Assembly (NCBI GenBank): GCA_963844815.1
Contig: CAWJPR010000001.1
Span: 8,096-72,095, forward strand
DNA length: 64,000 nucleotides
Reading direction: 5' to 3'
Origin: an uncultured Chloroflexia bacterium
GTDB lineage: Bacteria; Chloroflexota; Anaerolineae; Fen-1058
Positions 11,335 to 57,969 of the stretch are shown one piece after another; within the stretch, counting starts at the first letter, position 1; each line of letters opens with the position of its first letter. The notes beneath the pieces were generated by a model that had not been told where the DNA came from, did no database searches, and saw only the letters and a program-made list of their open reading frames with translations. The position numbers and the translations under genes were made by a program.

Positions 11335-12297
11335 ATGAGCAAAGGCTTGAGCCGCGCCGAGCGACTGCGCGAGATGGAACGGCTATATCTTGAGCATGGA
11401 TGGACCGACATTGAGATGGCTGAGCGGTTAGGCGTAGACCGCACGACGGTTTACAAGGATCGCGATCTGCTCTCCAGCGAGTGTCCAATTGAGCCTGACG
11501 ATGACGGGCGCTACAAAATCAACCGGACACGTTACCTGTCCCACATCCGGGTCAACGCCTACGAAGCACTGGCGCTGTATTTGCCCGCGCGGCGCGCGGC
11601 GCGACAGACGTTGGTGGCGCAGCCCCATATCGCCAAGGGGCTGGAGAAGTTAGCCGTTGCGCTCAAGCGGCCCATGACTGAGCGCCTAGTGAAAGCGGCG
11701 AACATCATCCTGGCACAGGCGGCTCTGCCTGAACGAGTGGCAATTATGGAAACGGTGACACGCGGCTGGATCGAACAGCGCAAGATTCGCCTCGCTTACC
11801 GAGGCTTGCGCGCGAGGCAGACCGGCCACCACATCGTCAAACCTTATCTGATCGAGCCGTCACTCTGGAGTGATGGATCATACGTGATCGGCCACAGCGA
11901 TTATTTTGACGACATCGCAGTGTTCAAGATCGAGCGGATTGAATCTGCCGAACTGAAACTTGAGACGTTTGAGATTCCAGAGGATTTCGACGAGCAGCGT
12001 ATGCTGCGCTACGCGTGGGGCATCTGGTCGAGCGAAGAAGAACCGGTCACCGTGCGGCTTAAGTTCAGCGGGCATGAAGCCATCACGCGCATGAAGGAAA
12101 CCATCTGGCATCCGCTCCAGGCCAAGCCTCTGGACCAGCCCGACGGCGACTGCCTCTGGGAAGCGCCCATCGCCGAATGGCAGGAGATGCTGCCGTGGGT
12201 GAGAGGGTGGGGGGCCGATGTGGAGGTGATCGCACCGGAGGAGTTGAGAGAGAAGTTGATGCGCGAAGCGCAGAAGATGGCGGAGCTGTATCAGGTG
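11335..12297 (+). CDS. HTH-WYL-domain transcriptional regulator (CRISPR-associated WYL type); the reading frame continues without a stop into cas3
   Basis: RBS aaggag; N-terminal HTH (EMAERLGVDRTTVYKDRDLL). WYL core (EPSLWSDGSYVIGHSDYFDDIAVFKIERI). Characteristic C-terminal VEVIAPEELREKLMREAQKMAELYQ. Host-like GC (~58-60%). Confidence 0.7.
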
Positions 12298-14760
12298 ATG
12301 GAAATGAAAAAACAACTGATTGCCCACATCCGCGAAAAAGACAAAGCGCGTCAGTCTCTTATCGAGCATTTGACAGTAGTTTCCAAACTTGCAGGGCAGT
12401 TTGCCAGCAAGATTGGGTTGAAAGAGGCAGGTGAAATTCTCGGACTGCTCCATGATTTTGGCAAGGCAAGCGAACAGTTTCAGAATTATTTGCTGTCTGG
12501 AGCCGGTGAGAAAAATCCAGACGCAGATGGCTACATTGACCCAGAGGCAATGCGTGGAAAAATTGACCACTCAACCGCAGGCGCGCAGGTGCTTTACGAA
12601 AATCTTTGGAGCAAAGGGCAGAAGGAAAAAATCGCCGCGCAGGTGCTCACCCTATGTGTCGCTTCCCATCACTCAGGGTTGATTGACTGCCTTGCGCCAG
12701 ACGGAGAAAACAACTTTAAGCGGCGCATGGAAAAAACGGATAAAGATACTCACAAGTCAGAGGCATTATCAAATTTACAGGGAATCGAAACCGCGTTCAA
12801 AGATCTACTCTCGAAAAATGTTGTAGACCAAATCGTGACAAAACTGCAAAGCCTGAAAGAGGAATCCAATGAATCACAGACCAACCTAAATTTCAAAGCG
12901 GGATTGCTTGTCCGTTTTCTGCTCAGTTGCCTGATCGACGCAGACAGGCTCGACACTGCCGATTTTGAGTCCCCAGGCAATGTCCGCATCCGTAACTATG
13001 GGCAATATCACCCTTGGGAGATTTTAATTGAGCGCTTGGAAGACAGGTTAAAGGCGTTTGAGAAAAAGAACGAAGTGGATGAATTGCGCGCCCAGGTGTC
13101 GCAAGCCTGCTTTGAGTTTGCCGTGAAGCCAAAGGGCATTTATCAGTTGACCGTCCCGACAGGCGGCGGCAAGACGCTGGCAAGCTTGCGGTTTGCGTTG
13201 AACCATGCCAGAGAGCACTCAATGGAAAGAGTGTTTTACGTTATTCCTTACACTCTCCATCATTGACCAGAACGCCGAAGAAATCAGAAAGATTTTGGAA
13301 GATACGGACAAAAACGGCAAGTATTTGGATAGAGTGGTTCTTGAACACCACTCCAATTTGATGCCCGAAGAAGAAAGTTACAGGCAGAACCTGCTGGCGG
13401 AAAACTGGGACGCGCCGGTTGTCCTCACGACACAAGTTCAATTTCTGGAAGCGTTATTTGGCGGGCATACGCGCAGCCCGCGCAGAATGCACCAGTTGGC
13501 AAACTCGGTGATTATTTTGGATGAAGTGCAGACCGATCCCAATCAACATGATTCACATGTTGAACCTTGCGCTTCGTTTTCTCGTTCATACTGCGGCGCG
13601 ACAGTCGTGCTTTGTACTGCAACACAGCCGCCGCTTGACAAGCTGGAAAATCCCTATCGCGCTTTAATCATCACCCCGAGCAGCGCATCATCCAGAATGA
13701 GGGAACTATTCGAGCGGTTGAAGCGTGTCGAAGCGTTTGATAAGCGCAAACTCGGTGGATGGAGCGAGGAGGAAGTGGCGGAATTGGCTGAGAGAGCAAT
13801 TGCAAGAAAAAGGCAGCGTGCTGATTGTGGTCAACACCGAGAATCGGCCAAAGCGCTGTATCAAGCCAATCGAACAGGAAAATCGCAGGCGTGCAATCTA
13901 TCATCTCAGCACGAACATGTGTCCTACCCACCGCCTGAATGTACTGAATGAAATCAAAGACGAAACTTAAAGCCGAAAAGAAGCCTGTGATTTGCGTCAG
14001 CACGCAACTCATCGAAGCGGGCGTGGATATTGACTTCGGCGCGGTTATCCGCTATCTGGCAGGGCTGGATTCGATTGCCCAATCAGCAGGGCGGTGCAAC
14101 CGTCACGGAGTGCGCGAGGGATTGGGGAGCGTCTGGGTGGTCAATCCACAGGAGGAAAATATCGAAAGATTGCAGGACATCAAGATCGGCGTGAACAAGC
14201 CCAACGCGTGTTAGACGAATTCGAGAAGAACCCCGAATAGTTTGGAAATGAGCGAATTGGCCTGTACGCGATTGCCGCGTATTACAAGTATTACTACTAC
14301 GAACGAAGAAATGAAATGGAATATCCAGTCGGCGAAAGTCGTCCGCGGAACAAGATGATACGTTGTTCAACTTGCTCTCGACAAATACGCTTTCAGTGGA
14401 CGCATACAAGAGAATTCATAAAGCCGTGCCCGAAATCCTTTTGGGCAGTCATTTCAAACCGCCGCAAAGGAATTTCGGGTGATTGACTCAGCCACGCGGG
14501 GCGTGATCGTTCCATACAAGGAAGGTGATGAGATTATCAAAGACCTGTGCGGCGCGTTTGAGTTGGACAAGCAGGGTAAACTACTCAAAAGGGCGCAGCG
14601 GTATTCCGTTAATTTGTTTCCAACATGAATTCGAAAATTGGCTAAAGTGGGAGCCATCCATGAGGTACAGGCAGGAACAGGGGTTTACTATCTCAATGAA
14701 GCAATACTACAGTGAAGAGTTTGGCTGGAGCGATGAGCCAGTCAATGACATGAAGTTCTT
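12298..14760 (+). pseudogene. cas3: cas3 (type I-C HD nuclease/helicase), fragmented by at least 4 frameshifts
   Basis: HD domain (HLTVVSKLAGQFASKIGLKEAGEILGLLHDFGK, CVASHHSG, CLIDADR). Walker [55 protein letters not shown] and a Cas3 C-terminal domain lie in successive different frames (13205.., 13725.., 13948.., 14525..). GC ~48%. Confidence 0.8.
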
Positions 14761-14790
14761 ATCGGCGAGCGCACTTCAAATTCAACCGAA

Positions 14791-15413
14791 ATGCAACATG
14801 AATGTCGTGGTCGAAAACAATCGAAGTCTAATCAAAACAGCGTAACGTTCAAGGTGTGGGGCAGGTACGCCCTGTTCACCGACCCGCTGACCCGCATTGG
14901 CGGCGAAAAATACTCCTACCAAATTCCCACATACGAGGCATTGAAAGGAATTTTGAGCTCGGTGTATTGGAAACCGACCATCGTATGGGTGATCGACAAG
15001 GTGAGGGTGATGAAGCCCATCCGCACGCAGACCCGCAGCGCAAAGCCAATAAAGTATTCGCTGGCGGAAATGACCTTTCAATTTATACCTATCTCTCGGA
15101 TGTCGAGTATCAGGTGCAGGCGCATTTCGAGTGGAATGAAAATCGCTAAGACCTGGCGCATGACAGCAATGAGAACAAGCATTTCTACATTGCACGGCGG
15201 ATGATCGAGCGCGGCGGCAGAAGGGATGTGTTTCTCGGAACACGGGAATGCCAGGGATATGTCGAGCCGTGTAAATTTGGCGAAAAGGGCTTTTACGACG
15301 ACTATGGCGAAATGTCCTTCGGGCTGATGTTTCACGGCTTTGATTATCCCGATGAAGGCAAGCTGGCGATTTCTGGCACGCTTCTGGCGGCCGAAAATGG
15401 ATTGACGGCGTAA
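14791..15413 (+). pseudogene. cas5: cas5c (Cas5d), at least 2 frameshifts
   Basis: [60 protein letters not shown], then [25 protein letters not shown] and [17 protein letters not shown] in other frames. Confidence 0.8.
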
Positions 15414-15544
15414 TCCAGTTATCCGCCCCGAGGGATTGCAAAGGATTCGCAAGTTTGTGCGCCCGATGAAATCCAATCCGCCCGCCACGATTGGACTAGA
15501 AGAAGAAGGTTGCTCGAAGGCTACAGGAAGGGAGGGCGTGAGAT

Positions 15545-17392
15545 GAACTGGAGCAAAGTTTGTATGAGACATACGAGAATTGTCAAAACATGATTGGCTA
15601 TACCCAGATGACAATGATGTTCCGCTTCTTCCAATATGTCACATTACTGCAAAAGGCGCAGATTGAAATAGTGATAGATGGCAAAGGCGATTTTCGAGAG
15701 AGCACGAGTGTACACAAAGAAGACTCAAGGACAATTATTCCCTGCACCGAAAGCTCTGGCGGCAGCAGAGCTGGGAGTAAGCCGAGCGCATCCCTTATGT
15801 GACAAATTGCAGTACCTTGCTGGCTGATTACCTGACTACGGCGGAGTAAGAGACTCCTAGTTTTGCCAAAGATCCAATGAACCATATGGAATTTTATTAT
15901 CGCTGACTGAATGGTGTCATTCGCAATACACCCACCCAAAAGCCTGTGCAGTTTAGCAATATACCAAAAGGAAACTCTGAATGCAAGATCTAGTAAATCA
16001 CAGGATTTTGCTTGCTAGATGCAAGTGGAAAATTATTGTCCAAAGATAGGTGAAAAGAGAGAAAAATCCAAGGATATCTTCGATTCGTGGTTCTGACCAC
16101 TGCAAGATAGTGCAGGTGCTTTATACGGTGGGAAGTGGAAATTCCTGGACGATTCGAATCGAGAGTCTGGAGCGATGAAGTAATCCAACTTTGGGAATAG
16201 TTGGACTAACTTACTACTTAAACACAAAGATGAAAGAGACATTTGTCTAGGTACCGGGCGAGAAAAATTTATCGCTGACCACCATCCCGAAATACATCCG
16301 AACGATGGGGATAATGCCAAGATAATTTCACCAAACGATACTAGTGGATTCACTTTCCGGGACGTTTCTCTACAGTCAAGACCAAGCGGCGTGGGGCTGG
16401 AGACGACACAAAAAGCCCATTTATGCCCTTCGCTGGCTAATTAGCCGACAAGGCTATTTAGGCAGGAGATTTGGCGGTTGTCGCTTGGGCATTTCGGGCG
16501 CAAACCTGCCCCAGCCGACAGATGATCCATTATCCGGCCCTGATATGGCGACTTACCGCCTGAAGAAAGCAAAGACGGCTGAACTGCTCAGGATATTGGC
16601 CATTCAGACTGAAAAAGAAAATCGCTGGATATCGTCAAGAGATCGGTGAACGTAAGATGTAGTTGTCATGGCAGTGGATTCTGCCACACCGGGGCGGTTG
16701 GCCATCGTCTATTACCGTGCCCTGAAGGCTCCGAGTTCCTGCGAGCGAATTGAAGACTGGCATGAATCTTGTGCTTGGCGGCACATATCGCTCGATCAAG
16801 TTCAGGATCAACAAAGCGGAAAACTAAAAATGTTATATCCCTTTTCATTGGTGCTCCTGCCCCAGCCGATATTGCGGAAGCCGTCCTATGGACGCCGCCT
16901 AGATGACAAACTCCGGAAAGCCAGATCAAACGCCTGCTCCCCTGTATCGTGGACGGTCAGCCCATCCCGCGTGATCTTGTTGAGTCGGTGGTCAGGCGGG
17001 CGTCCAATCGGGCGGGAATCAGAAACCCGGATGAAAAAAATACGTGGGATGGAGATTTACATGGAAGAAAACTCTCAGCATCGCCTGTGCATTATTCGAA
17101 AACACAAAGATGGAAAGGAGAATTACGAGATGGCACTCGATGAACAGAAAGACGAGAGATATCTCTATGGAAGGCTACTCGCCTTGCGGAAAATCCTTGA
17201 AGAATGGGCGTTAAACAAAGCCAAGGAAAATCGGCCGACGAATGCTGCCCGATTACATGCAACGATTCTTCGGAACACCCATATCAGTACATGGGAACGA
17301 TCGAATGATCGCTTACTCCCTACAAGGCGAGGCTTGGCGGAAAGTCAAATAACGCCAGCGAATGATAGATGAAGTTATTGCTTCTTCAATCT
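15545..17392 (+). pseudogene. cas8c: cas8c (Csd1) remnant, heavily degraded (stops in all frames, AT-rich middle)
   Basis: N-terminus MNWSK..YETYENC. C-terminal blocks CIVDGQPIPRDLVESVVRRASNRAG and YEMALDEQKDERYLYGRLLALRKILEEWAL...RPTNAARLHATILRNT lie in two different frames. 15800-16350 is ~40-45% GC with no long ORF. Confidence 0.65.
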
Positions 17393-17539
17393 GAAGATTT
17401 TACAACGATAAGCGGTTAAGCGGAGAATTTTTGATTAGGCTACCATTGCCAACGAGAATATCTACGCAGGAACACCCGACGAATTGCAAATAAAGAAAAT
17501 AACAATCTGAAACAACCAGATAATTCAACCATATCATGA

Positions 17540-18450
17540 TAAGGAGAATTTACCATGACTACCTTAATCGAATAAAATTGACTTTGCCGTAATTATTTGT
17601 GTCAACAATGCCAATCCCAACGGCGACCCGCTCAACGGCAACCGCCCGCGTACCAATTACGAAGGCCTCGGCGAAATGTCCGATGTTTCCATCAAGCGCA
17701 AAATCCGAAACCGCCTGATGGATATGGGCAAATCCGATCTTTGTTCAATCCGATGACAACCGAGTGGACGATTATCGAAGTCTGCGTGACGGGCAGAAGC
17801 GACGCTCAAGGGTGTTGACCAGGACAAAAAGAAATATCGGGAAGCGGCCTGCAAGCATGGCTGGATGTGCGCGCTTTTGGGCAGGTCTTTGCGTTCAAGG
17901 CAAAAAGGGAAGAAGAGCGAAGGTGAAGAGGAAGCGATGGCGTTTCCATTCCCGTACGTGGTCCTGTTTCAATTCATCCTGCTTTTTCAGTGGCTTCCTG
18001 TGCTGGACCGCGTAACCAGCATTCAAATCACCAAAAGCGTCAGCGGCGAAGCCGGCGGAAAAGCGCGGCTCGGACACCATGGGTATGAAGCACCGTGTTG
18101 ATCACGGCGTCTATGTCTTCTATGGCAGCATGAATCCGCAGCTTGCCACAAAAACGGGATTTTCGGATGAGGATGCCGAAGCCATCAAAGAGGCATTGAG
18201 GACACTGTTCCGCAATGACGCCTCGTCTGCGAGGCCTGAAGGAAGCATGGAAGTTTACAAAGTGTATTGGTGGAAGCATAACAACCACAATGGGCAATAT
18301 TCTTCAGCCAAAATACACCGTTTGCTTGATGTGACAGTGAAGCCCAAGAGTAGACAGAACCAAAGAGTATCGGAGATTACGACATTACTCTGAACGAACT
18401 GCCTGGCCTGGGATGTGAAGTGATAGATGGCGATAGGAAATTGCTTCGAC
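17540..18450 (+). pseudogene. cas7: cas7c (Csd2), frameshifts and an early stop
   Basis: KIDFAVIICVNNANPNGDPLNGNRPRTNYEGLGEMSDVSIKRKIRNRLMDMG; later GMKHRVDHGVYVFYGSMNPQLATKTGFSDEDAEAIKEALRTLFRNDASSARPEGSMEV in another frame. The ATG at 17558 is followed by a stop 6 codons later. Confidence 0.75.
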
Positions 18451-18469
18451 CAATTTGGCGCTCGCAATG

Positions 18470-19110
18470 ACAGGATAATGAAGTCCGAATACACCCCGAA
18501 GACCTGCTGCCGCTTTCGGGCATCCAGCACTTCCTGTTCTGCCGCCGGCAGTGGGCGTTGATCCATGTTGAGCGGCAGTGGCAGGAGAACGCGCTCACTG
18601 CCGAAGGCCGGCTTCATGCACAAGCGCATGGATGATCCTTCTTCACCGAAATGCGGAACGGGGTGATCACGGCGCGGGCGGTGCCGGTCGCCTCGTACCG
18701 TCTGGGGCTGTCGGGCGTGTGCGATGTGGTCGAGTTCACCGAGTCGCCGGAAGGTGTTAAGCTGCCGGGACGGAAGGACTGTACCTGCCTGCGCCGGTGG
18801 AATACAAACGCGGCAAGGAAAAACACGATCACAGCGACGAGGCGCAGCTATGCGCCCAGGCCATGTGCCTGGAAGAAATGCTGTCGGTGACCATCCCCAG
18901 AGGATATCTGTATCTACGGCGAGACCCGCCACCGGGTTGAGGTGGAGTTGACGCTGAGCTGCGGAGCCTGGTGCAGGACATGGCAGATGAAATGCATGGC
19001 TATTTCAGCGCGGCTACACCCCCGCGTCAGACCGTCCAAGGCCTGCCGTTCCTGTTCGCTGGCCGATATCTGCCTGCCGAGTTTGCAGGAGAAAGGATGC
19101 ATGCCAGCTT
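18470..19110 (+). pseudogene. cas4: cas4 (RecB-like nuclease with C-terminal Cys cluster), multiple frameshifts
   Basis: [77 protein letters not shown] and C..CSLADICLP are spread over three frames. Confidence 0.7.
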
Positions 19111-19124
19111 CGAAATACATCCGA

Positions 19125-20190
19125 CAGCAGATCGAGAGCACGCTTAAGACTCATGAAGAAACTTGGCAATGTTCTGTATGTCACCACTCCCGAAGCCTAT
19201 CTCTCCCTGGATGGCGAAAATGTCGTCGTCAAGAAGGAACTGAGCATGGCTCTTCGACGCGCCTGCCACTGCACAACCTGGAAAACATCGTCTGCTTCAC
19301 TTAGCAGGGAGCCAGCCCGGCGTTGATGGGCGCCTGCGCCGATCGTAATATCGGTTTGTGTTTCCTCACCCCCAACGGAAAATTCCAGGCGCGGGTCACC
19401 GGCAAGGTAAAGGGCAATGTGCTGCTGCGCAAGAAACAGTACGAATGTCTCGGAGAAGGACAGACAGAGCGTCCCAATTGCCGCCTCCTTCCTGCTGGGC
19501 AAGATCGCCAACTGCCGCAAGGTGATCGAACGCGCCGTCCGCGATCATGCCATGCTGGTGGACGTACCGGCGCTCACCAGGCGCTCCGCCTGTCTGAAGG
19601 AGACGCTGCGCGCCATCCCACAGTGTAAATCGATCGGCGAACTGATGGGCTTCGAAGGCAGCGCGGCGAAAATCTACTTTGGCGTGTTCGATCAGCTGAT
19701 CCTGCAGCAGCGCGAGGAGTTTTTTTCAAGGAACGCTCCCGCCGTCCGCCGCTGGACAACATGAACTAGCTTGCTTTCGTTCCTGTATACCCTGTTGACG
19801 AACGAAGTCGCTTCTGCCCTGGAAACGGTGGGGCTGGACCCCTATGTTGGCTTTTTGCATCAGGACCGTCCTGGGCGTCCTTCGCTGGCGCTGGACTTGA
19901 TGGAAGAGCTGCGCCTGTCTTTGCCGACCGCCTGGCGTTGTCACTGGTGAACCGTAAACAGATCACTGGCAAAGGATTCACACAAAAGGAAAGCGGCGGC
20001 ATCCTGATGGACGATGAGACCCGAAAAGCGGTATTGACCGCCTGGCAGGAGAGAAAAAAAGAGGAGATCCTGCATCCTTATCTCAAGGAACAGATTCCCT
20101 TTGGATTGATCCCCCATGTCCAGGCGATGCTGCTGGCGCGCTATCTGCGCGGCGACCTGGACGCCTATCCGCCATTCTTCTGGAGTTAGC
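19125..20190 (+). pseudogene. cas1: cas1 (type I-C), multiple frameshifts
   Basis: MPASKYIRQQIESTLKTHE.., [104 protein letters not shown] and a terminal YPPFFWS sit in at least 5 frame segments. Confidence 0.85.
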
Positions 20191-20206
20191 GATGCGATGA
20201 TGGTTC

Positions 20207-20566
20207 TTGATCACATATGATGTGAACACGGAAACCGGCCGGGCAAAAAGCGTCTGCGCAAAGTGGCCAAAGAAATGTCAGAATTATGGTCAGCGCGTGC
20301 AGAACTCGGTCTTTGAGTGTCTGATCGACCCGGCCCGTCTGAAGCAATTGCAGAAGTCCCCTGGCAAAATCATCGATACCGAAAAGGATAGCTTACGTTA
20401 TTACTACCTGGGAGATCACTGGAACACACGGGTCGAGCATGTGGCGCCAAAGCCAGGCTTGACCTGGAGGGAACGATCATTGCCTGAAAGTCCGTTCTGC
20501 GAACCCGAAGTTCACATGAAAACCGGGAACGGTTCGCAGGGAATTTGCACTTTAACAACCTGATAT
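20207..20566 (+). pseudogene. cas2: cas2, two closely spaced frameshifts in the N-terminal third
   Basis: MMVLITYDVNTETGR, then KKRLRKVAKEM in the +2 frame, then CQNYGQRVQNSVFECLIDPARL..DSLRYYYLGDHWNTRVEHV back in the original frame. Confidence 0.75.
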
Positions 20567-20665
20567 TTCTCAATCCACAGTGATTTTCTGTTTATTCTTG
20601 ACTTTACCTGTATGATGAAAGCACAATATCTGGGGGGCAGGTGGCCTGCTGCACCAGATATTGCG
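20567..20665 (+). promoter_or_regulatory. CRISPR leader (cas2-proximal, AT-richer)
   Basis: ~100 nt between cas2 and the first repeat: tatttctcaatccacagtgattttctgtttattcttgactttacctgtatgatgaaagc.... Confidence 0.5.
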
Positions 20666-21348
20666 GTCGCCCCTCATGCGAGGGGCGTGGATTGAAACAT
20701 TCGTCGAGGCGCTGGCGGAAAAGGTGCACATGTCGCCCCTCATGCGAGGGGCGTGGATTGAAACCCATCGACAAGGACAACTGCTACGAGATCGAGTCGC
20801 CCCTCATGCGAGGGGCGTGGATTGAAACAGCCAGGCCCAGCGTAATGGCAATGCCGCGCCAGTCGCCCCTCATGCGAGGGGCGTGGATTGAAACCTCAGT
20901 CAGCCCGGTGTCGCCGCTGGTCATCAGGTCGCCCCTCATGCGAGGGGCGTGGATTGAAACACGCCCAACCAGCGGGCGCGGTCGCGCACGAGATGTCGCC
21001 CCTCATGCGAGGGGCGTGGATTGAAACATGTGCTCCTGGTCGTTTCCGCATCTGAGGAAAGGTCGCCCCTCATGCGAGGGGCGTGGATTGAAACCCTAGT
21101 GTCGGTGATCTTTGGCGCGCCAAAATGCCGGTCGCCCCTCATGCGAGGGGCGTGGATTGAAACAGCGGGACGAGCGGCCATGTTACACCGTCAACTGATG
21201 TCGCCCCTCATGCGAGGGGCGTGGATTGAAACACGGAGAGCAGCATGCCTAATAAGAATTCGTTCCGTCGCCCCTCATGCGAGGGGCGTGGATTGAAACC
21301 CGTCCAGCGCCATGTCACGGGTTAGGGAAGCCAGTCGCCCCTCATGCG
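20666..21348 (+). CRISPR. CRISPR array part 1: 10 full 33-nt repeats plus a 15-nt repeat stub interrupted by the IS; type I-C-like repeat GTCGCCCCTCATGCGAGGGGCGTGGATTGAAAC
   Basis: Repeats at 20666, 20732, 20796, ... 21268; spacers 31-36 nt. The repeat ends GTGGATTGAAAC with an internal GCCCCTC/GAGGGGC stem. The final unit is truncated after ...CTCATGCG at 21348. Confidence 0.95.
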
Positions 21349-21565
21349 TGTTTTTGTCAAGCGAAAAGTAGGCCATTTGATGATCGAAAATGGAGCCAGA
21401 GGGTATCAGTTAACCGTAATGTGTTGATCGAAAACAGGGCCAGTTGCTGATCGAAAAGAGGGCCACGGGAGCTACGGCGAGGCTGGCCGCCGTCGTCGCC
21501 GTAGGGGCTGTGGACATGTGGGCAACTGGGCTGTTGCAGTTGTCCACATGTCCACAACCCAGACC

Positions 21566-22330
21566 TCACGGGCCGTGCCCGTTGGTCCGGGCCGCTTGTT
21601 GCTGTCGTTGCCGAAAGCGATAGGACTCACCGATAAATTCCAGGATATGGGCGCGATGCGTGAGCCGATCGAGCAAAGCGCCCGTCAAACGTTCATCGCC
21701 AAAGACCTGCGTCCAATCGGTAAAGCGCAAATTGGTGGTGATAATCAACGCCACGCGTTCGTAGAGTGCCGAGCAGACCTGAAACAACAGCTGCGCACCG
21801 CTGGCCGTAAACGGGATAAAGCCGAGTTCATCGATCACCACCACGCTGTTGAGCAAGCCGTTCAAAACTTTGGGGAGTTGGTGTTTGTCCTGAGCCAGCA
21901 GGAGTTCATTGACCAAGCCAGCGGCATTGTAGAAGCGGACGCGGCGACCTTGGCGACAGGCGGCGAGCGCCAACCCGGTCGCGAGATGGGTTTTCCCTAG
22001 GCCGGGATTGCCGATCAAGATTAAGGGCTCGGCCTGCTCGATGTAAGCGCCCCGCGCCAGATCCAATACGGTCAGTTTAGCCGGGCTGGTCAAGCAACTG
22101 AAGTCGAAATCGGCCAAGTCTTTGAGCACGGGCAAGTGGGCGGCCCTGATGCAACGTGTTTGAAGGTTCTTGTCGCGTTGCATCACTTCGAGTTCCGCCA
22201 GCGCCAGCAGGTAGTGCTCGTAGTCATGATGATTGCGGGTGGCGTCTTCGGCCACGACCCGATGTTGGCGCACGAAGGTTGGCAAGCGCAGTTGTTTCAG
22301 ATAGGTGTCGAGCAGCAAGGTTTCGGCCAT
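21566..22330 (-). CDS. istB: IS21 helper ATPase IstB
   Basis: 254 aa; Walker A LIGNPGLGKTHLATGLA; IS21 IstB signature blocks. Confidence 0.9.
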   Translation of the reverse strand: MAETLLLDTYLKQLRLPTFVRQHRVVAEDATRNHHDYEHYLLALAELEVMQRDKNLQTRCIRAAHLPVLKDLADFDFSCLTSPAKLTVLDLARGAYIEQAEPLILIGNPGLGKTHLATGLALAACRQGRRVRFYNAAGLVNELLLAQDKHQLPKVLNGLLNSVVVIDELGFIPFTASGAQLLFQVCSALYERVALIITTNLRFTDWTQVFGDERLTGALLDRLTHRAHILEFIGESYRFRQRQQQAARTNGHGP

Positions 22331-22333
22331 GGC

Positions 22334-23918
22334 TCACCGCCCGACCTGTAGGAGTTGATCATAGCGCTGCAGATCGAGCGTTTGGTTGCCGACCTGAGCC
22401 AACTGCGGGCGATCCGTCAAATCCAAGGCGGCGGCAACGGCATATCTTCGCGCTGCTGATGCAGGCACAAGCGAATCCCATCCAGATCGGGCAGCCCAGC
22501 GCGAGGGCGCGTTGAATGGCCTGTTCGATCTGGGCAGCGGAATAATCGCGATGCAGTTTCAATACCCGGATGAATTCGCGCACACCACGACCCTCAGGCC
22601 AGGTCGCGCGTAACTGCGCCAGCAGTTGTTCATACACCGGCGGCCAGGTCTTGCGCCAGGCGCGCAGCGGACGGGCGTGCTCAAAAGCCCCCGGCCGTTG
22701 TTCCAGGAGCGGCAGATAGTGCTGTGCGTCAAACAGATCCTGGTCGCGCTCATAACAGCGCGAATGGCGCGCGATAAGTTGCTGGTCGTCCAGAATTCGA
22801 TCCGAAACGGATACGCCTTGAGCGTCAACGTCGCACGCGCGGCTTCGACCGGCACCGAGTAACGATTGGTTTCAAACGTCACCTGGCTGTACGGATTCAG
22901 TGCCACGGTGAGCGTGACACAACAGTCAAAGTCATGATCCGGGAGCGGCCCGCAGGAGGGCCTGTTCTTGCGCAAAGGCCTCGGCGATTGTCCGCGTCCA
23001 ACCATCGGGTTGCCGCTGGCCATCGGCTGCACAGGCGGCACGCAGGTGCGCGTTGAGCGCCTCCAACGAGGCGAAGGCGGGACAGCCCGCCAGAAAGTTG
23101 CGCCGGGCATAGCCAACCCCATGTTCCACACCACCTTTTTCGTGGCCTTCGCCAGGGGTGCAGAAGCGGTCTCAAACAAGTAGTGACTGCGAAACTGGAT
23201 AAAGCTCGGATTCAAGTCTCGTTCGTGCCCCAGCAGCACGCGGGTGACCGCGCTGCCGAGATTGTCGTAAGTCAAAGTGTGGGGCACCCCGCCGAAAAAG
23301 TGAAAGGCGTGGACATGACCATCAAAGAACGATTCTTGTTTCTGGGAAGGAAAGGCCATCACAAACAGTCGGCGCGAATAGCACAACCGCATGACAAACA
23401 ACTGCACCGTGATCCGTTCCCCTGCCACTCCACTTCGGCCTCGCCCCAATCGACCTGGGCGTCGCGACCGGGATCAAATTCAAGCGGGAGATAACCAGCG
23501 GACGACGCCGGGCCTGACGCACCCGCCCGATGTAGCCCCGCACCGTCGATTCACCACCCGTGAAGCCGTCCGCCTGCAATTTGGTGAAGATCACGTGGCT
23601 CGTGTAGCGTTGCTTGCGCGGCAAGGTCTCGTTGTCAGCCAGCCACTGATCGATCTGAGCCTTCACCGGTCCCAACATCGGCGCCGACCGCGGCGCGGTC
23701 AACTGATATTTCGGCATCTCCGCCTCCTCGACCGCCTTGTCAACCGTCGCCCGCGAGTGCCCCATTTCACGGGCGATCTGCCGTTTCGATTTCTGTTCCA
23801 CATAGTACGCCCGCCGAATGCGTTCACGTTCATCCACAGGAATCATCTCCTCGCCTCCGCTAAAGTGGGTCGCCCAACGATAGCAGAGGATGGCGGTGGC
23901 CCTGTTTTCAACCATCAA
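22334..23918 (-). pseudogene. istA: IS21 transposase IstA, at least 3 frameshifts
   Basis: N-terminal HTH (ERIRRAYYVEQKSKRQIAREMGHSRATVDKAV). Downstream DDE-region blocks GGVPHTLTYDNLGSAV, HEKGGVEHGVGYARRNFL (ORF 22932..23129) and NRYSVPVEAA are in different frames. Confidence 0.8.
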
Positions 23919-23957
23919 TTTCTGAGCAGGTGGCCTACTTTTAGAATATCAAAAACA

Positions 23958-26202
23958 CATGCGAGGGGCGTGGATTGAAACATCCTGTCATCGCCTGTGC
24001 TGACCGGCCATAGGGTCGCCCCTCATGCGAGGGGCGTGGATTGAAACAATAACGGAGTTCGCAAGAACATCAATCTGACCGGTCGCCCCTCATGCGAGGG
24101 GCGTGGATTGAAACTGAGCAGCCCCGCGTCCTGCCGCTAGAATGCACCCGTCGCCCCTCATGCGAGGGGCGTGGATTGAAACTGCTTGAATCGATGAAGG
24201 GCAAATTCGGCGGCATGTCGCCCCTCATGCGAGGGGCGTGGATTGAAACCCGTTCGAGCCGTTCACCATCAGCAAGAAACTCCTGTCGCCCCTCATGCGA
24301 GGGGCGTGGATTGAAACATCGGGCGTGACGTTCGCCAATAAACCCGATGGGCGCCCGGGTCGCCCCTCATGCGAGGGGCGTGGATTGAAACAATCATCCC
24401 AGCGAAACGCAGGGCGCGTATCGCCTGTCGCCCCTCATGCGAGGGGCGTGGATTGAAACCGAGAGTCGCAGCGCGTCGAGTAGATCGGTTACTGGTCGCC
24501 CCTCATGCGAGGGGCGTGGATTGAAACCACCTCGATCCCGCTGATGTGCGTTGGGAAACAGTCGCCCCTCATGCGAGGGGCGTGGATTGAAACTTTACGC
24601 TGCTCTTGCGCCATGTTGCCCCGTTCGTGTCGCCCCTCATGCGAGGGGCGTGGATTGAAACAGCAATTTGTCGCCGGCGACGCAGCAGACGATTGGTCGC
24701 CCCTCGCATGGAGGGGCGTGGATTGAAACTTTCTGGAACGGCCGCGCATCGCACCAGGATCGCGTCGCCCCTCATGCGAGGGGCGTGGATTGAAACACAT
24801 ACCGTTACGCTCGTAAACGTCGATACGCTTCTGTCGCCCCTCATGCGAGGGGCGTGGATTGAAACCTTCGACATCGGTCTTAAAGTATGGCCTGACATCG
24901 TCGCCCCTCATGCGAGGGGCGTGGATTGAAACGTTCGCGCTCTGTTGCGTGGTCTGTGGCGTCATGTCGCCCCTCATGCGAGGGGCGTGGATTGAAACCC
25001 CCGTGTAGGGGTCAAAGGTCGCCCGGATCGGGCGTCGCCCCTCATGCGAGGGGCGTGGATTGAAACCCCCGTGTAGGGGTCAAAGGTCGCCCGGATGGGC
25101 GTCGCCCCTCATGCGAGGGGCGTGGATTGAAACAGCTTGCGCAATCTGTCTATGACTCTCTGAAGCGTCGCCCCTCATGCGAGGGGCGTGGATTGAAACG
25201 GCTTACAATCCTGTCTCGTCCATAGGGTATCGCGTCGCCCCTCATGCGAGGGGCGTGGATTGAAACTGTGCGCGGCGCTCTAGCGCCTGCTGCCATCGGG
25301 TCGCCCCTCATGCGAGGGGCGTGGATTGAAACCGCGCGCAGCGCGCACCAGCGGGGCGGGGACAAGTCGCCCCTCATGCGAGGGGCGTGGATTGAAACCG
25401 CCGCTCTGCCGTTTCCGTGCCGCTTTGTCGTGTCGCCCCTCATGCGAGGGGCGTGGATTGAAACAACGCCGAGCTCTCACCGCAGGAACTCGAAGACGTC
25501 GCCCCTCATGCGAGGGGCGTGGATTGAAACGCAATTGTCTACCATCAACAGCGCAATTGAAACTTGTCGCCCCTCATGCGAGGGGCGTGGATTGAAACGC
25601 GCTGGAAAAGCGCATCAAATCACACCCGCCTAGTCGCCCCTCATGCGAGGGGCGTGGATTGAAACCTGTCGATGCGGCCGGGGCCTGAATGGGCAGGCCG
25701 TCGCCCCTCATGCGAGGGGCGTGGATTGAAACACAGAGGCGTGAGACGGATGTGGCGGTGCGGCGGAAGTCGCCCCTCATGCGAGGGGCGTGGATTGAAA
25801 CCCACGTCACTCCCCGCCCCCATCACCGCCTTACTGTCGCCCCTCATGCGAGGGGCGTGGATTGAAACGCGGCATGGTCGAGAGCATCGCCGAAGATCGT
25901 GCGTCGCCCCTCATGCGAGGGGCGTGGATTGAAACGCGGCATGGTCGAGTAGCAATCGCGACGATCGTGCGTCGCCCCTCATGCGAGGGGCGTGGATTGA
26001 AACTTCACGCGTTCGGCTGCCAGGCACGCGATCGCGAGTCGCCCCTCATGCGAGGGGCGTGGATTGAAACTGCGGCGTGCAGATTGGTCTCGCGCGGCTT
26101 CGACGTCGCCCCTCATGCGAGGGGCGTGGATTGAAACATCGCGATACGCGACGCTGGAGCAGCTGGCGAGTCGCCCCTCATGCGAGGGGCGTGGATTGAA
26201 AC
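23958..26202 (+). CRISPR. CRISPR array part 2: the remainder of the split repeat plus 33 full repeats. One variant repeat sits at 24696..24729. The last repeat (26170..26202) is perfect
   Basis: Same 33-nt repeat. Adjacent near-identical spacers at ~24999 and ~25067. Adjacent related spacers at 25869 and 25936. The variant repeat GTCGCCCCTCGCATGGAGGGGCGTGGATTGAAAC keeps the stem. Confidence 0.95.
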
Positions 26203-26756: not shown

Positions 26757-27911
26757 ATGAAAGGAGCCACCATGTCCCCGCAGCGACATCCTATCGAATG
26801 CATTCTTCCCCCGCACATGCTCAACGAGATCGCCAAAAACGGCACGCCCGCACAGCAGGTGTCCGCCGAGAAAACGCTGCTGGCCTCGGCCGCGCTGCGT
26901 GGAAAGCGCGCGATCCTCACCGACTATCCGCGGATGGCCGCTTCGGCCACCGCCGCCGGAAGATCCCGGATCGTCTACAGCGCCGATAACGGATCGAACT
27001 TGCCCGGCCGGCAGGTGCGCACTGAGGGCGACCCGCCCACGGGCGATGCGGCGACCGACGAGGCGTACGACGGCGCCGGCGCGACCTATGATCTGTACAA
27101 GGATATCTACGCGCGCAACTCCATCGACGGCAACGGCCTGCGGCTCGACTCGACGGTGCACTATCAGAAGAACTACGATAACGCCTTCTGGGACGGCCAG
27201 CAGATGGTCTACGGCGACGGCGACGGGGATCTGTTCAACCGCTTCACGATCTCGATCGACGTGATCGGGCACGAGTTGACCCACGGCGTCACCCAGTACG
27301 AAGCCAAGCTCGTCTACAGCAATCAACCGGGCGCGCTGAACGAATCGATGTCGGACGTGTTCGGCTCGCTGGTCAAGCAGCGCCAGCTCGGCCAGACTGC
27401 GGCCCAGGCCGACTGGCTGATCGGGGCGGGGCTGTTCACCGCCAAGGTCAACGGCGTGGCGCTGCGCTCGATGAAGGCGCCCGGCACGGCCTACGACGAT
27501 CCCGTGCTCGGCAAGGACCCGCAGCCCGCGCACATGCGCGACTACGTGAACACGCTCAGCGATAACGGCGGCGTCCACATCAACTCCGGCATCCCCAACC
27601 ACGCCTTCTACCTCGCGGCGCTGGAGCTGGGCGGCAATGCCTGGGAGAAAGCCGGCCGCATCTGGTACGTCACCCTGCGCGACAAGCTGGGCATCAACTC
27701 GCAATTCAAGGACTGCGCGCAGCTGACCTACCAGGTGGCGGGTGAATTGTACGGCCAGAACAGCCTGGAGCAGCAGGCCGTGCGCAAGGGCTGGGATGGC
27801 GTCGGCATCAGCGTCGACACGGGCGGTGGCGGCACTTCCGGTTGTCTATTATCCGCGCTCGGGATGGCCAGCCTGTTATTCGGCAAGGACAAGACGCAGA
27901 ACAAAGCGTGA
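26757..27911 (+). CDS. M4 (thermolysin/protealysin-like) zinc metallopeptidase
   Basis: HEXXH at VIGHELTHGV; downstream NESMSDVFG (Glu-x3-Asp). 384 aa with a short propeptide-like N-terminus; RBS aaaggag. Confidence 0.85.
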   Translation: MKGATMSPQRHPIECILPPHMLNEIAKNGTPAQQVSAEKTLLASAALRGKRAILTDYPRMAASATAAGRSRIVYSADNGSNLPGRQVRTEGDPPTGDAATDEAYDGAGATYDLYKDIYARNSIDGNGLRLDSTVHYQKNYDNAFWDGQQMVYGDGDGDLFNRFTISIDVIGHELTHGVTQYEAKLVYSNQPGALNESMSDVFGSLVKQRQLGQTAAQADWLIGAGLFTAKVNGVALRSMKAPGTAYDDPVLGKDPQPAHMRDYVNTLSDNGGVHINSGIPNHAFYLAALELGGNAWEKAGRIWYVTLRDKLGINSQFKDCAQLTYQVAGELYGQNSLEQQAVRKGWDGVGISVDTGGGGTSGCLLSALGMASLLFGKDKTQNKA

Positions 27912-27916
27912 CACAG

Positions 27917-28036
27917 TCTCGCGCGGTCCTCTCGATGCTGAGCATTCTGATGCGGAGTGAAACGCAGTCCGAAGAATGCTCAGCGCGGTGTGCTGGGCGA
28001 GGCAGATCTGGCCCGGGGAAGAGAGGACCGCGCAGG
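27917..28036 (+). promoter_or_regulatory. Nested inverted repeats between the protease and the downstream small gene
   Basis: GCGCGGTCCTCTC (27917-29) pairs with GAGAGGACCGCGC (28024-36). GATGCTGAGCATTC (27930-43) pairs with GAATGCTCAGC (27981-91). Confidence 0.3.
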
Positions 28037-28052
28037 CAAAGGTTGGATAGAC

Positions 28053-28370
28053 ATGCGCATAGATTACGAGCGAACCGGCGGCTTCGCGGGGATGCGTCTG
28101 GCGGCCCAGATCGACACCGCCGCGCTGCCGGCGGATCAGGCCAGGGCGCTGCACGACTCGATCGAAGCGGCGCACTTCTTCGATCTCCCGGCCAGGATCC
28201 CCGCGGCCCCCAAGGTTGCCGATCAATTTCACTACCACGTGGCGATGGAAGCCGAGGGCAAACGGCACACGGTCGATGTGGGCGAGGCGTCGGCTTCCCC
28301 CGCGCTGCAAGAACTGCTGCAGCAGTTGACGGTGCTGGCGCGCGAAGCGCGCTCCGCGCGCAGCAAGTAG
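28053..28370 (+). CDS. Small protein downstream of the M4 peptidase; candidate emfourin-like protealysin inhibitor
   Basis: ~105 aa from MRIDYERTGGFAGMRL.... Operon position matches the protealysin-emfourin gene pairs described for M4 peptidases. Family assignment by position and size only. Confidence 0.4.
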   Translation: MRIDYERTGGFAGMRLAAQIDTAALPADQARALHDSIEAAHFFDLPARIPAAPKVADQFHYHVAMEAEGKRHTVDVGEASASPALQELLQQLTVLAREARSARSK

Positions 28371-28419
28371 CTGGCCGCGTCACACCGCGCCAGTCAGAGG
28401 CAGAGATTTCTCAGCCCTG

Positions 28420-28795
28420 CGGGCTTCGAAATGACACGCGTGGTTGCGCTTGTCATTCCCGCGCGCTTTTTAGTGGGAATCCAGGTGTTACGAGACGTAC
28501 AGCGCGTAGCGCGGTGTCATTCCGAGCGAAGCGAGGAATCTCTCGCAGCACGGCTAAGATTCCTCGTCGCACACTACGCTCCTCGGAATGACACGTCAAC
28601 AGCGTGGATGCCTGACACGCCCTGTCCGCGCTTTTTGCGCGGGGGCGCGCTTGGCGAAGGCACTCGGGGGCACACCTGCACCCACTGGCGTGCAGTGCGG
28701 TGTAACGGCGCGCCACGGTCACCCCGTCACTCTGTCACCCCTTCATCTTGTCATCCTGTCACACTTGCACCTGCGCTGCAAGTGCAGGTATCCCT
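28420..28795. repeat. Cluster of dispersed palindromic repeat elements: GTCATTCCGAGCGAAGCGAGGAATC-type hairpins, 8-nt periodic GTCANNNN/CCCTTCAT runs, and a CACTTGCACCTGCGC...GCAAGTGCAGGT hairpin
   Basis: Related copies at 41000-41110, 54589-54706 and 56561-56675. Translation gives the ...SFRAKRGISRS... motif. Confidence 0.6.
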
Positions 28796-29866
28796 TCATC
28801 CCTTCATCCCTTCATCCTCTGCCGCGTCCCTGGCCGAGCGCCCGAACGTCTCCAACTGATCGCGCACCTTCTCCGCCGCCGTGTACGGCGCGTAAATCCG
28901 GCGCGTGGTGCTGATGTCGGCGTGCCCCAGATACGCTTGCAGCACGTCCAGATCCATGCCTTCGTGTAATAACTGCTGCGCGCGGAAATGCCGGAAGGCG
29001 TGCGGCGAGGTGCCTTTGAACAGCCCCAGTTCACTTGCCGCCTTCTTCACCACCGCCCACAACGTGCCGCGCCCCAGCGTCTTGCCCACGTCGCGCCCGT
29101 GCGACACAAACAGCCCCGGCGATCGATCGCCGATCCGATCGCGCTCCCGGCAGTAGGCCGCAATCGCTTGCCGCGCCTCCTTCGTCAGCAGCAGCAGGCG
29201 ATCCTTGCTGCCCTTGCCCGTGATGCGCACCTCGGCTTTGCGTCCATCCAACACCATCTCGCGTGTGAGCGAGGCCACTTCGCTGACGCGGCCGGCGGAG
29301 GCATACAGGGTGTGCACGATGGCCCTGGCGCGCAGAATCTGCAGCCGCTTGATCTGTCCGCGTTTCTCGTCGGGAGCGGGCAGGGGGATGGCGTCGTAGT
29401 AAGTCACGATGCGCGGAATGCCGGGATCGGGCTCGCGCCCGGCTCTAACCGTTCGACGCGACCCGCGCGCCGCCTTCAGACGATTGACCGCTTTGCCGAC
29501 CTGAAATCCTGATGACAAATAATCGTTCGCATCGAGCCAGATCAGAAATCGCTTCACGGCGGCGAGGTAGTTCTCCTGCGAAGCGGGCGAATAGCGCCGC
29601 TTCAACAGCCAATCTTGAAATTTCAACAGCAGGTCATCGCGAAACTTCGCCGGCGAATACGGAGAGGGCAGGGGGATGTATTTCGTGTCGGCGATGAATC
29701 TAGCCAGGCCCATCAGCCCAAAGCGATACGTTGCCGCTGTGCGCGGGCTGGTCATGATCGTGGCAATGAAAGCCTCGGCATATTCAATCTCCGGAGCGGG
29801 CTGCGTGCTTTTGTCCGGAGAGGGCTTTCGAGAGGTGGAAGGGCGTTTAGGCTTCGTCTTAGCCAA
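28796..29866 (-). CDS. Tyrosine-type site-specific recombinase/integrase
   Basis: 356 aa; C-terminal catalytic block HAFRHFRAQQLLHEGMDLDVLQAYLGHADISTTRRIYAPY; N-terminal SAM-like domain. Confidence 0.85.
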   Translation of the reverse strand: MAKTKPKRPSTSRKPSPDKSTQPAPEIEYAEAFIATIMTSPRTAATYRFGLMGLARFIADTKYIPLPSPYSPAKFRDDLLLKFQDWLLKRRYSPASQENYLAAVKRFLIWLDANDYLSSGFQVGKAVNRLKAARGSRRTVRAGREPDPGIPRIVTYYDAIPLPAPDEKRGQIKRLQILRARAIVHTLYASAGRVSEVASLTREMVLDGRKAEVRITGKGSKDRLLLLTKEARQAIAAYCRERDRIGDRSPGLFVSHGRDVGKTLGRGTLWAVVKKAASELGLFKGTSPHAFRHFRAQQLLHEGMDLDVLQAYLGHADISTTRRIYAPYTAAEKVRDQLETFGRSARDAAEDEGMKG

Positions 29867-34507: not shown

Positions 34508-34647
34508 GCCAATCGCCCCTCGCGGCATTGCCCATTTTGCGGTAAGATTGCCCTGTCGTTCGACACACCGACGAGCACTCGAAGCATCACGGAGCAACTC
34601 GCCATCCGGGTTGTTCCGTTTCTCGTCCACCGCCCTGCCCTGATATC

Positions 34648-38449: not shown

Positions 38450-39474
38450 TTACTTCAGCACGAACAGGGCGGGCAGGCCGCCAGTGTGGAGAAAGATGAT
38501 CGGCTCATTGCGCCCCAACTGCCTGCGCTCCACCAGATCGATCAGTCCCGCGAATGCTTTGCTGGTATAGACCGGATCGAGGATGACGCCTTCTGACTTC
38601 GCCAGACGGTGGATTGCCGCAAGGCCCTGCTCGCTTGGCACCGCGTAACGTGATCCGACGTAGGTATTCTCAATCAATGGAATCTCGGCGGGCATGAAAG
38701 TATGCGGTTGATTCAACCGCGCGCATATTTCACTCGCCAGGCGCGCGATTGAGATCGGGAAGTCTTTCCACAAGCGTCCCACGTCGATCCCCAGCGGGCA
38801 CAGTGACGAGCCAATCAAATGCAGCCCGGCGATCAGCCTGCCAGTGTGCCGCCCGATCCGGCGGCCATCACGATGTGGGCCTTGTCAATCCCCAGAGCGC
38901 GGGCCTGCTCGTCGAGTTCGAGCGCGGCGCGCACGTAGCCCAGACCGCCGCGCCACGAATGCCCGCCCACGGGAATGAAATAGTGCGGCCCGATTCGCAG
39001 CCAGGCAATAAAGCGCACCAGGCGAATCGTCGTCTCAAGCGTCATACGCGCGTCGCCACCTCCGCCGAAGGGGATGAAGTGCATCTCCGCGCCGAACAAT
39101 TCGTTGAGAAACAGATTGCCTTCCAGCCGCGGCGGCCTGCGCTCGAAATAGAAGAGATGCGGCTCCAGCCCGATTTGACGCGCGGCGGCCGCCGTGATAC
39201 GCGCATGATTCGATTGCAGCCCGCCAAACGTCGCCACTTTGCGCGCGCCGCGCTGCTGCGCCCGCTGCTGCGCCTCGGCCAGCAAATACTCCAACTTGCG
39301 CGTCTTGTTGCCACCCCCGCCAGGGCCGATCTCGTCGTCGCGCTTGAGGTAGATGGGGCGCTGCAGCTGCTCGCTCAGATGCGGCAGGAACTGCAGCGGC
39401 GTTGGATATTCCGCCAACGGCAGGCGTGGATAGCGATCGAGTTGGGTATACAGCCAGTCACGCTTGTTATCCAT
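38450..39474 (-). CDS. PLP-dependent ACC deaminase / D-cysteine desulfhydrase family protein, apparent frameshift near 38825
   Basis: ORFs 38833..39474 (GGNKTRKLEYLL...) and 38450..38818 (...FLHTGGLPALF) are in different frames and together match a ~335-aa family member. Confidence 0.65.
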
Positions 39475-39549
39475 GCTTGATTGTTCGGCAGGAGTGGCAT
39501 GGGGATGCCAGCCCTACTGCATCACACGCAAGGCATAGGAATGTCCCGC

Positions 39550-57960: not shown

Positions 57961-57969
57961 AGGCAGCGT

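What the first reader, a model, noticed from the sequence alone, without database searches (positions are those of the whole stretch)
11335..26202. Whole type I-C cas operon is pseudogenised, yet its 44-repeat array is essentially pristine
All seven cas genes are recognisable by strong protein-level identity to canonical I-C proteins. Each is broken by several frameshifts and/or stops, and cas8c is reduced to AT-rich debris. In contrast, 43 of 44 repeats are identical to the consensus and the leader is intact. Arrays normally decay or get deleted once adaptation and interference are lost. So either the decay is very recent, or the array is maintained or used in trans by another cas locus elsewhere in the genome. 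The other explanation is localised assembly errors in a low-GC island, which would be notable too. The baseline frameshift rate in the housekeeping genes is about 1 per 5-10 kb, against at least 20 lesions in 8.3 kb here.
Basis: partly seen in the sequence, partly recalled or inferred. Interest (0 to 1): 0.65.

Follow-up and report, generated by a model that had tools for sequence, protein, structure and literature searches.

The report
Broken cas genes: likely assembly errors
An ordinary type I-C CRISPR-Cas locus looks riddled with about 80 gene-breaking lesions, but their pattern points to local long-read assembly errors, not real gene decay, so the "dead genes, perfect array" paradox most likely does not exist.

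Summary
All seven type I-C cas genes (11335-20484, + strand) are recognisable. Between 13255 and 20441 they carry about 69 frameshifts and 11 in-frame stops, one per 90 nt. A control on intact operons gave 0-1 false calls.

The interpretation as decay is not supported:
- After frame correction the proteins are as conserved as intact homologues. Unique amino-acid changes are 121 against 121. Cas1 deviates at 1 of 254 conserved columns, where intact homologues average 5.3.
- The indels are ±1-2 nt and are not in homopolymers.
- The first 1.9 kb of cas3 and 42 repeats have no lesions.
- An independent contig of the same array and IS (L094) carries a sister cas cassette. It differs mainly at third codon positions, has its own frameshifts elsewhere, and lacks at least 18 of the window's 24 comparable ones.
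- An ABC transporter and a PLP enzyme on the same contig are also split.

- cas8c is full length at 55-61% identity, not debris.
- The low GC is typical of this cassette family.

Verdict: most likely a poorly polished, strain-variable segment of a long-read assembly. Read mapping is needed for proof.

The parts
11335..14761 (+). cas3 with an N-terminal HTH-WYL-WCX regulator domain fused to the HD nuclease and helicase. Uninterrupted from 11335 to 13254, then 14-16 frameshifts and 1-2 stops.
   Evidence: Homologues of about 1070 aa have the same fused architecture.
14833..15533 (+). cas5c (Cas5d family), 3-5 frameshifts and 1-2 stops
15543..17524 (+). cas8c/csd1. Full length after frame correction, with 23-30 frameshifts and 6-8 stops.
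17555..18434 (+). cas7/csd2, 7-9 frameshifts
18478..19139 (+). cas4, 8 frameshifts
19153..20186 (+). cas1c, 5 frameshifts and one TAG (19302) at a conserved Trp. Otherwise 85-89% identical to hundreds of intact 343-aa Cas1c proteins.
20207..20484 (+). cas2, 3-4 frameshifts
13255..20441 (.). Lesion-dense segment: 69 frameshifts and 11 stops, one per about 90 nt. Interpreted as poorly polished consensus.
20485..20665 (+). Leader. Its repeat-proximal motifs are shared with the leader of intact locus L001. Its last 108 nt differ from L094 at only 4 positions.
20666..21348 (+). Array part 1: 10 exact repeats plus the left 15 nt of the 11th
21349..23957 (-). IS21-family element inside repeat 11. istB (21566-22330) is intact and istA (about 22334-23918) is in pieces. 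Terminal inverted repeat TGTTTTTG, 6-bp target duplication CATGCG (21343-21348 and 23958-23963). The same insertion is present in L094.
23958..26202 (+). Array part 2: right part of repeat 11, 32 exact repeats and one variant
24696..24729 (+). 34-nt variant repeat (loop ATGC changed to GCATG, stem kept). Shared with L094, so it is real.

Best explanation
The locus is an ordinary type I-C CRISPR-Cas system of an uncultured Anaerolineae-like Chloroflexota bacterium, and it is probably functional or was until recently. It consists of a WYL-Cas3 fusion, cas5c, cas8c, cas7, cas4, cas1, cas2, a leader and a 44-repeat array.

The roughly 80 lesions between 13255 and 20441 are most likely consensus errors. 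They sit in a segment of a long-read-based metagenome assembly that was poorly covered or not polished.

The inferred cause is that the cas cassette varies between co-occurring strains, while the 5' part of cas3, the leader end and the array are shared. Reads or polishing data from the dominant strain would then correct the shared parts and the repeats but not this cassette. The multicopy IS would be corrected only in part.

What is shown: the lesion spectrum, the absence of substitution decay, the private nature of the lesions, the sharp edges of the segment, and broken housekeeping genes elsewhere on the contig.

What is inferred: the technical cause, that is low coverage or failed polishing in a strain-variable segment.
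For: 1. No decay signal.
- Unique amino-acid changes after frame correction are 121 in the window and 121 in intact L001 over 2,561 columns.
- Cas1 deviates at 1 of 254 columns that are at least 90% conserved. Forty intact homologues average 5.3.
- Cas8c is full length at 55-61% identity.

2. Purifying selection is visible in the corrected frame. Window and L094 differ at 25-36% of third codon positions but only 2-9% of first and second positions.

3. Spectrum. There are 54 ±1-nt and 15 ±2-nt indels, and the -1 to +1 counts are 32 to 22. They are not enriched in homopolymers. Natural bacterial indel rates are about ten-fold lower than substitution rates and are biased towards deletions (PMC6054270).

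4. The lesions are private. L094 carries the same array, variant repeat and IS. It has 15 frameshifts at other positions, and at least 18 of the window's 24 comparable frameshifts are absent from it. None is shown to be shared.

5. Sharp edges. There are no lesions in 1,920 nt of cas3 (about 18 expected) and none in 1,386 nt of exact repeats (about 13 expected). Spacer lengths match short-read arrays with the same repeat.

6. Other genes on the contig are split: an ABC transporter, a PLP enzyme and istA.

7. Small-indel frameshifts are a known problem of long-read metagenome data (bioRxiv 10.1101/2021.08.23.457338).

8. The method control gave 0-1 false calls.
Against: - No reads were available, so coverage and per-site support are unknown. 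The sequencing platform of the source contig is also unknown.
- Eleven clean in-frame stops are more than a random substitution process would give for the small missense excess.
- L094 carries a different cas allele (about 13% nt divergence). Its lack of the window's lesions therefore does not exclude lesions that arose recently in the window's lineage.
- A 100-fold local rise in error rate, with a left edge in the middle of a gene, is unusual. Its cause is inferred, not shown.
Confidence: 0.8

Rival explanations
1. True, very recent pseudogenisation. The cas cassette was inactivated and then gained dozens of small indels and stops in the genome itself. The array is kept because it is young or because another I-C system in the genome uses it in trans.
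For: - The lesions are in the public record.
- Eleven point-like nonsense codons exist.
- The array is already damaged by an IS21 insertion shared with L094.
- The same 33-nt repeat serves other, divergent I-C operons (L088, L089). A compatible trans system is therefore conceivable.
Against: - About 70 indels would normally come with hundreds of substitutions, yet none in excess is seen.
- Third-position-dominated divergence shows selection on the corrected frame.
- The indels are ±1-2 nt, lie outside homopolymers and show only a weak deletion bias.
- No lesion is shown to be shared with L094.
- Neutral decay cannot explain 1.9 kb of cas3 and 1.4 kb of repeats with no lesions.
Confidence: 0.06
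2. Mixed case. One or a few lesions are real, for example a nonsense codon or a frameshift that inactivated the cassette in this strain. These sit on top of a majority of consensus errors.
For: - There are more stops than expected relative to missense changes.
- Lesion density in cas8c is about twice that of the other genes.
- The IS insertion in the array is real, so the locus is not under perfect maintenance.
Against: Nothing singles out any individual lesion as real. The stops in cas8c can arise from short garbled patches, that is paired +1/-1 indels a few nt apart, as at 17306.
Confidence: 0.12
3. Chimeric or blended consensus. Reads from two cas alleles about 13% apart were piled onto one path, and the polisher produced indels where the alignments disagreed.
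For: - Two alleles are attached to the same array.
- The lesion-dense segment ends where the alleles converge, at about 20557.
Against: The window's corrected proteins are not mosaic or aberrant. Divergence from L094 is evenly spread rather than patchy. This is a sub-case of the best explanation, not a separate biology.
Confidence: 0.3

Closest known systems
Type I-C (Dvulg/Csd) CRISPR-Cas systems, e.g. of Desulfovibrio vulgaris and Bacillus halodurans
   Same: Gene order is cas3-cas5c-cas8c-cas7-cas4-cas1-cas2 with no cas6. The repeat is 33 nt, has a 7-bp GC stem and ends in GTGGATTGAAAC. Spacers are 33-36 nt. The leader lies next to cas2.
   Different: Cas3 carries an N-terminal HTH-WYL-WCX domain. 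In this assembly every gene downstream of 13255 is frame-broken.
Intact I-C cassettes of Chloroflexota metagenome contigs (L001, L090, L092, L093)
   Same: Protein identity after frame correction is 72-87% (51-52% for Cas8c). The per-gene GC profile and the leader motifs are the same.
   Different: Their repeat has a different stem (L001: GTCGCCTCCCCCTCGGAGGCGTGGATTGAAAC). In L090 and L091 the WYL regulator is a separate, overlapping upstream gene.
Frameshift artefacts of long-read (meta)genome assemblies
   Same: The lesions are small indels that split genes. They cluster where polishing or coverage fails, and other genes on the contig are split too (bioRxiv 10.1101/2021.08.23.457338; PMC9262707).
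   Different: The indels are not concentrated in homopolymers. The density (about 1%) is that of nearly raw reads and is confined to 7.2 kb.
Genuine degenerate cas loci and orphan arrays used in trans (known from the literature; recalled, not tested here)
   Same: A recognisable array sits next to non-functional cas reading frames.
   Different: Real cases show deletions, IS disruption and substitution decay. Here the protein sequences are fully conserved once the frame is restored.
IS21 family insertion sequences
   Same: The element has istA (HTH, rve, Mu-transposase C) and istB (IstB_IS21 ATPase), terminal inverted repeats, a 6-bp target duplication and a length of 2.6 kb.
   Different: It is inserted in the loop of a CRISPR repeat. 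istA is frame-broken in this assembly.

Membership tests
Type I-C CRISPR-Cas | Signature genes cas8c (Csd1), cas5c (Cas5d) and cas7 (Csd2) together with cas3, cas4, cas1 and cas2; no cas6 | tested here: met
   NCBIfam TIGR01863, TIGR01876, TIGR02589, TIGR03640, TIGR01573 and TIGR01596 hit consecutive fragments. Frame-corrected alignments cover the full length of each gene.
Type I-C CRISPR-Cas | Adjacent array with a 32-33-nt hairpin repeat ending in ATTGAAAC and a leader next to cas2 | tested here: met
   There are 42 exact repeats plus 2 altered ones. The leader aligns with that of L001.
Type I-C CRISPR-Cas | Intact open reading frames, i.e. a functional system | tested here: not met
   The sequence as deposited has 69 frameshifts and 11 stops. 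They are judged to be artefacts, but this cannot be shown without reads.
True pseudogenised operon (genomic decay) | Excess, frame-independent substitutions (dN/dS near 1) accompanying the disabling lesions | tested here: not met
True pseudogenised operon (genomic decay) | Natural indel spectrum: indels much rarer than substitutions, deletion bias, varied sizes | tested here: not met
   compared with PMC6054270
True pseudogenised operon (genomic decay) | Lesions reproduced in independent sequence of the same locus | tested here: not met
   At least 18 of 24 are absent from L094 and none is shared. Caveat: L094 carries a divergent allele.
Long-read consensus error segment | Indel-dominated lesions, private to one assembly, with other split genes on the same contig | tested here: met
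Long-read consensus error segment | Low coverage or lack of read support at the lesion sites | not testable with these tools
   No reads are available. The source genome is absent from genome contigs and from the contig index.
IS21 family | istA and istB genes, terminal inverted repeats, 4-8-bp target duplication | tested here: met

The most novel reading that the evidence does not exclude
The lesions are real. An indel-prone process confined to the cas cassette broke all seven genes within a very short time, while the array, the leader and a truncated WYL-HD protein (11335-13263) stayed under selection. The array would then be served in trans by another I-C system that uses the same repeat.
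Probability: 0.05. Interest if true: 0.65.

Novelty: not a real feature. Interest (0 to 1): 0.12.

Why it matters
If the decay were real, a pristine array beside a dead operon would bear on how arrays persist and work in trans. As it stands, the value is cautionary. Public long-read MAGs can hold kilobase-scale, near-raw-quality segments exactly at strain-variable defence loci. Annotation pipelines would score such segments as pseudogenised cas operons or orphan arrays. Three checks separate artefact from decay without any reads: frame-corrected conservation, the distribution of differences across codon positions, and comparison with an independent contig.

Tried and rejected
- Exact look-up of the source contig failed. 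The repeat has no match in 185,579 representative genomes, so a second locus in the same genome could not be sought.
- A HflX-based search found no close relative. The best hit was 62-65% identical, so no orthologous locus could be compared.
- The metagenome scan with the repeat found seven arrays. None shares spacers with the window, and their cas operons are distant.
- Searches with Cas3, Cas1 and Cas8 found no near-identical intact copy of the window's allele.
- A plasmid search gave no close IS copy to map the istA lesions.
- Three spacer cores had no exact match in viral contigs.
- No spacer targets the window itself, and there is no second IS copy in the window.
- Homopolymer slippage is rejected as the cause of the indels.
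- Low GC is rejected both as decay and as the determinant of the lesions.
- An alternative genetic code is rejected because the flanking genes have long standard ORFs.
Full report
WHAT IS THERE

The + strand from 11335 to 20484 encodes a complete type I-C gene set in the canonical order cas3, cas5c, cas8c, cas7, cas4, cas1, cas2. NCBIfam models for each family hit consecutive fragments in shifting frames. Cas3 begins at 11335 with an HTH-WYL-WCX regulator domain fused to the HD nuclease. More than 800 homologues share this fused architecture, mostly about 1070-aa proteins from Chloroflexota metagenomes. In some relatives the WYL protein is a separate, overlapping upstream gene.

A 181-nt leader follows cas2. 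After it comes an array with the repeat GTCGCCCCTCATGCGAGGGGCGTGGATTGAAAC: 42 exact copies, against none expected by chance.

The array is not continuous. The 11th repeat is split by a 2,609-bp IS21-family element at 21349-23957. The element has a terminal inverted repeat TGTTTTTG and a 6-bp target duplication CATGCG. Its istB is intact and its istA is in pieces. One further repeat (24696-24729) is a 34-nt loop variant.

HflX and the other flanking genes place the organism among Anaerolineae-like Chloroflexota. No representative genome is closer than 62-65% identity.

HOW BROKEN ARE THE GENES

I wrote a frameshift-aware protein-to-DNA alignment and used four intact homologous operons as references (L001, L090, L092, L093). 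The results agree across references. Between 13255 and 20441 there are about 69 frameshifts: 32 of -1, 22 of +1 and 15 of ±2 nt. There are also 11 in-frame stops, giving one lesion per 90 nt. The same method on intact operons of the same divergence lesions.

Several of the resulting ORF fragments are in the public protein collection on one 653,289-bp contig. The lesions therefore belong to the deposited record.

- cas8c is not debris. After frame correction it aligns end to end with 640-660-aa Cas8c proteins at 55-61% identity (E about 1e-240). Intact homologues show the same identity to each other.
- The low GC is not decay. Gene by gene it matches the GC of the intact cassettes.

WHY THIS DOES NOT LOOK LIKE DECAY

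1. There is no substitution load.
- Over 2,561 aligned columns the window has 121 amino-acid changes unique to it. Intact L001 also has 121.
- Against 40 intact Cas1c proteins, the window deviates at 1 of 254 columns that are at least 90% conserved. The intact proteins average 5.3 deviations.
- Natural bacterial indel rates are roughly ten-fold lower than substitution rates, and pseudogenes accumulate nonsynonymous changes (PMC6054270). Seventy real indels should therefore come with hundreds of substitutions.

2. An independent contig shows selection on the corrected frame. This is L094 (ENA ERZ25039503 contig_134737), which I found through the IstB cluster. It aligns end to end with window 26205-17273. 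It has the same spacers in the same order, the same variant repeat and the same IS insertion. Its cas7-cas2 genes are a different allele. The two differ at 25-36% of third codon positions but only 2-9% of first and second positions, counted in the corrected frame. That is the signature of purifying selection acting across the very sites where the window is broken.

3. The lesions are private. L094 has 15 frameshifts of its own at other positions. At least 18 of the window's 24 comparable frameshifts are absent from it, and none is shown to be shared.

4. The spectrum is technical. The events are almost all ±1-2 nt, show only a weak deletion bias and are not enriched in homopolymers.

5. The lesion-dense segment has sharp edges.
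- The first 1,920 nt of cas3 have no lesions, where about 18 would be expected. This stretch includes 750 nt of equally low GC.
- The 1,386 nt of exact repeats have none, where about 13 would be expected.
- Spacer lengths (mean 34.2, sd 1.6) match short-read arrays with the same repeat. The spacers of the noisier L094 are shortened to a mean of 31.7.

6. The contig has split genes elsewhere. An ABC transporter is split between 34546-35169 and 35199-36398. A PLP-dependent enzyme is split between 38453-38884 and 38836-39513. The istA of the IS is also split.

MOST LIKELY MECHANISM

Divergence between the window and L094 falls from about 13% to about 2% at about 20557, inside the leader. This is just beyond the last detectable lesion at 20441. 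I infer that the cas cassette varies between co-occurring strains, while the array, the end of the leader and probably the 5' part of cas3 are shared.

In a long-read metagenome assembly such a segment is covered by few reads of the right strain. Data from the dominant strain cannot polish it, so it stays at near-raw accuracy of about 1% indels. The shared flanks and the 44-fold repeated unit get corrected. Frameshifts from small indels are a recognised problem of long-read metagenome data (bioRxiv 10.1101/2021.08.23.457338; PMC9262707).

This step is inference. The sequencing platform, the coverage and the polishing history are unknown to me.

WHAT REMAINS ODD

- Eleven point-like stops are more than a random substitution process predicts for the small missense excess. 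Only 4.6% of random substitutions would give a stop. In Cas8c the excess deviations from conserved columns come mostly in clusters (33 of 287, against a mean of 9.8). At least one stop (17306) reads as a +1/-1 pair a few nucleotides apart. Short garbled patches are my best guess, but this is not proven. A few real lesions cannot be excluded.
- The left edge at 13255 is not covered by any outside sequence.
- Because L094 carries another allele, its intact frames at the window's lesion sites do not formally exclude very recent lesions in the window's lineage.

COMPARISON WITH WHAT IS KNOWN, AND VERDICT

The locus is a member of type I-C by gene content, repeat and leader. The WYL-Cas3 fusion is common in this clade. 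The IS is a typical IS21 element.

The claimed phenomenon, a dead operon beside a pristine array, fails three defining tests of true decay: substitution load, indel spectrum and reproducibility. It meets the testable criteria of a consensus-error segment.

My estimates are about 0.8 for an artefact, about 0.12 for a mix with a few real lesions, and about 0.05-0.06 for real wholesale pseudogenisation. Read mapping over 11-27 kb would decide.

The rest of the genome could not be reached. The repeat is absent from the representative genomes and the source contig is not indexed. The in-trans idea therefore stays untested. I note that the identical repeat serves distant I-C operons in other metagenomes (L088, L089).

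Noticed in passing
window 21349-23957; L094 (same junctions): An IS21-family element sits in the loop of the 11th CRISPR repeat, with a 6-bp target duplication CATGCG. It separates 10 leader-proximal spacers from 33 distal ones. The same insertion is in an independent contig, so it is real.
   Followed up: yes
window 17273-20557 versus L094: The same array, variant repeat and IS lie next to two cas7-cas2 cassettes that differ by 11-17% nt (25-36% at third codon positions). Divergence collapses at about 20557 in the leader. This suggests exchange of the cas cassette by recombination, or a chimeric assembly in one of the two contigs.
   Followed up: partly
L088 12440-13478; L089 8430-8598: The identical 33-nt repeat is used by intact I-C operons whose Cas1 is only about 50% identical to that of intact operon L001, the closest reference for the window. 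One of these contigs is labelled as a human gut metagenome. The closer cassette L001 uses a different repeat stem.
   Followed up: partly
window 11335-12294; L090 9036-10004: The HTH-WYL-WCX regulator is fused to Cas3 here and in hundreds of Chloroflexota homologues. In L090 and L091 it is a separate gene that overlaps cas3 by 4 nt.
   Followed up: partly
window 24999-25033 and 25067-25100; 25869-25902 and 25936-25970: Two adjacent spacers are identical except for a 1-nt indel. A second neighbouring pair shares its first 14 nt and its last 9 nt but differs by indels in the middle.
   Followed up: partly
window 34546-36398 and 38453-39513: An ABC transporter (membrane domain split between two frames) and a PLP-dependent enzyme (PALP profile 3-173 and 214-295 in two overlapping ORFs) are frame-broken. 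A STAND ATPase-TPR gene at 55212-57819 may be broken too.
   Followed up: partly
window 26757-29866: Directly after the array lie a thermolysin-type M4 peptidase, its emfourin-type inhibitor and a tyrosine integrase on the minus strand. The CRISPR locus may sit at the edge of an integrated element.
   Followed up: no
L094, repeats in the part aligned to window 24100-25000: About a dozen consecutive repeats of L094 lack the same A (GCGAGGGG reads as GCG-GGGG). This is a recurrent, context-specific consensus error and shows how noisy that contig is.
   Followed up: partly
window 57032-57819 and 57969-58110: There is a 236/356-nt tandem repeat inside a TPR-coding region. Nearby is a 75-nt unit repeated 1.9 times at 95% identity that contains a long palindrome.
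   Followed up: no
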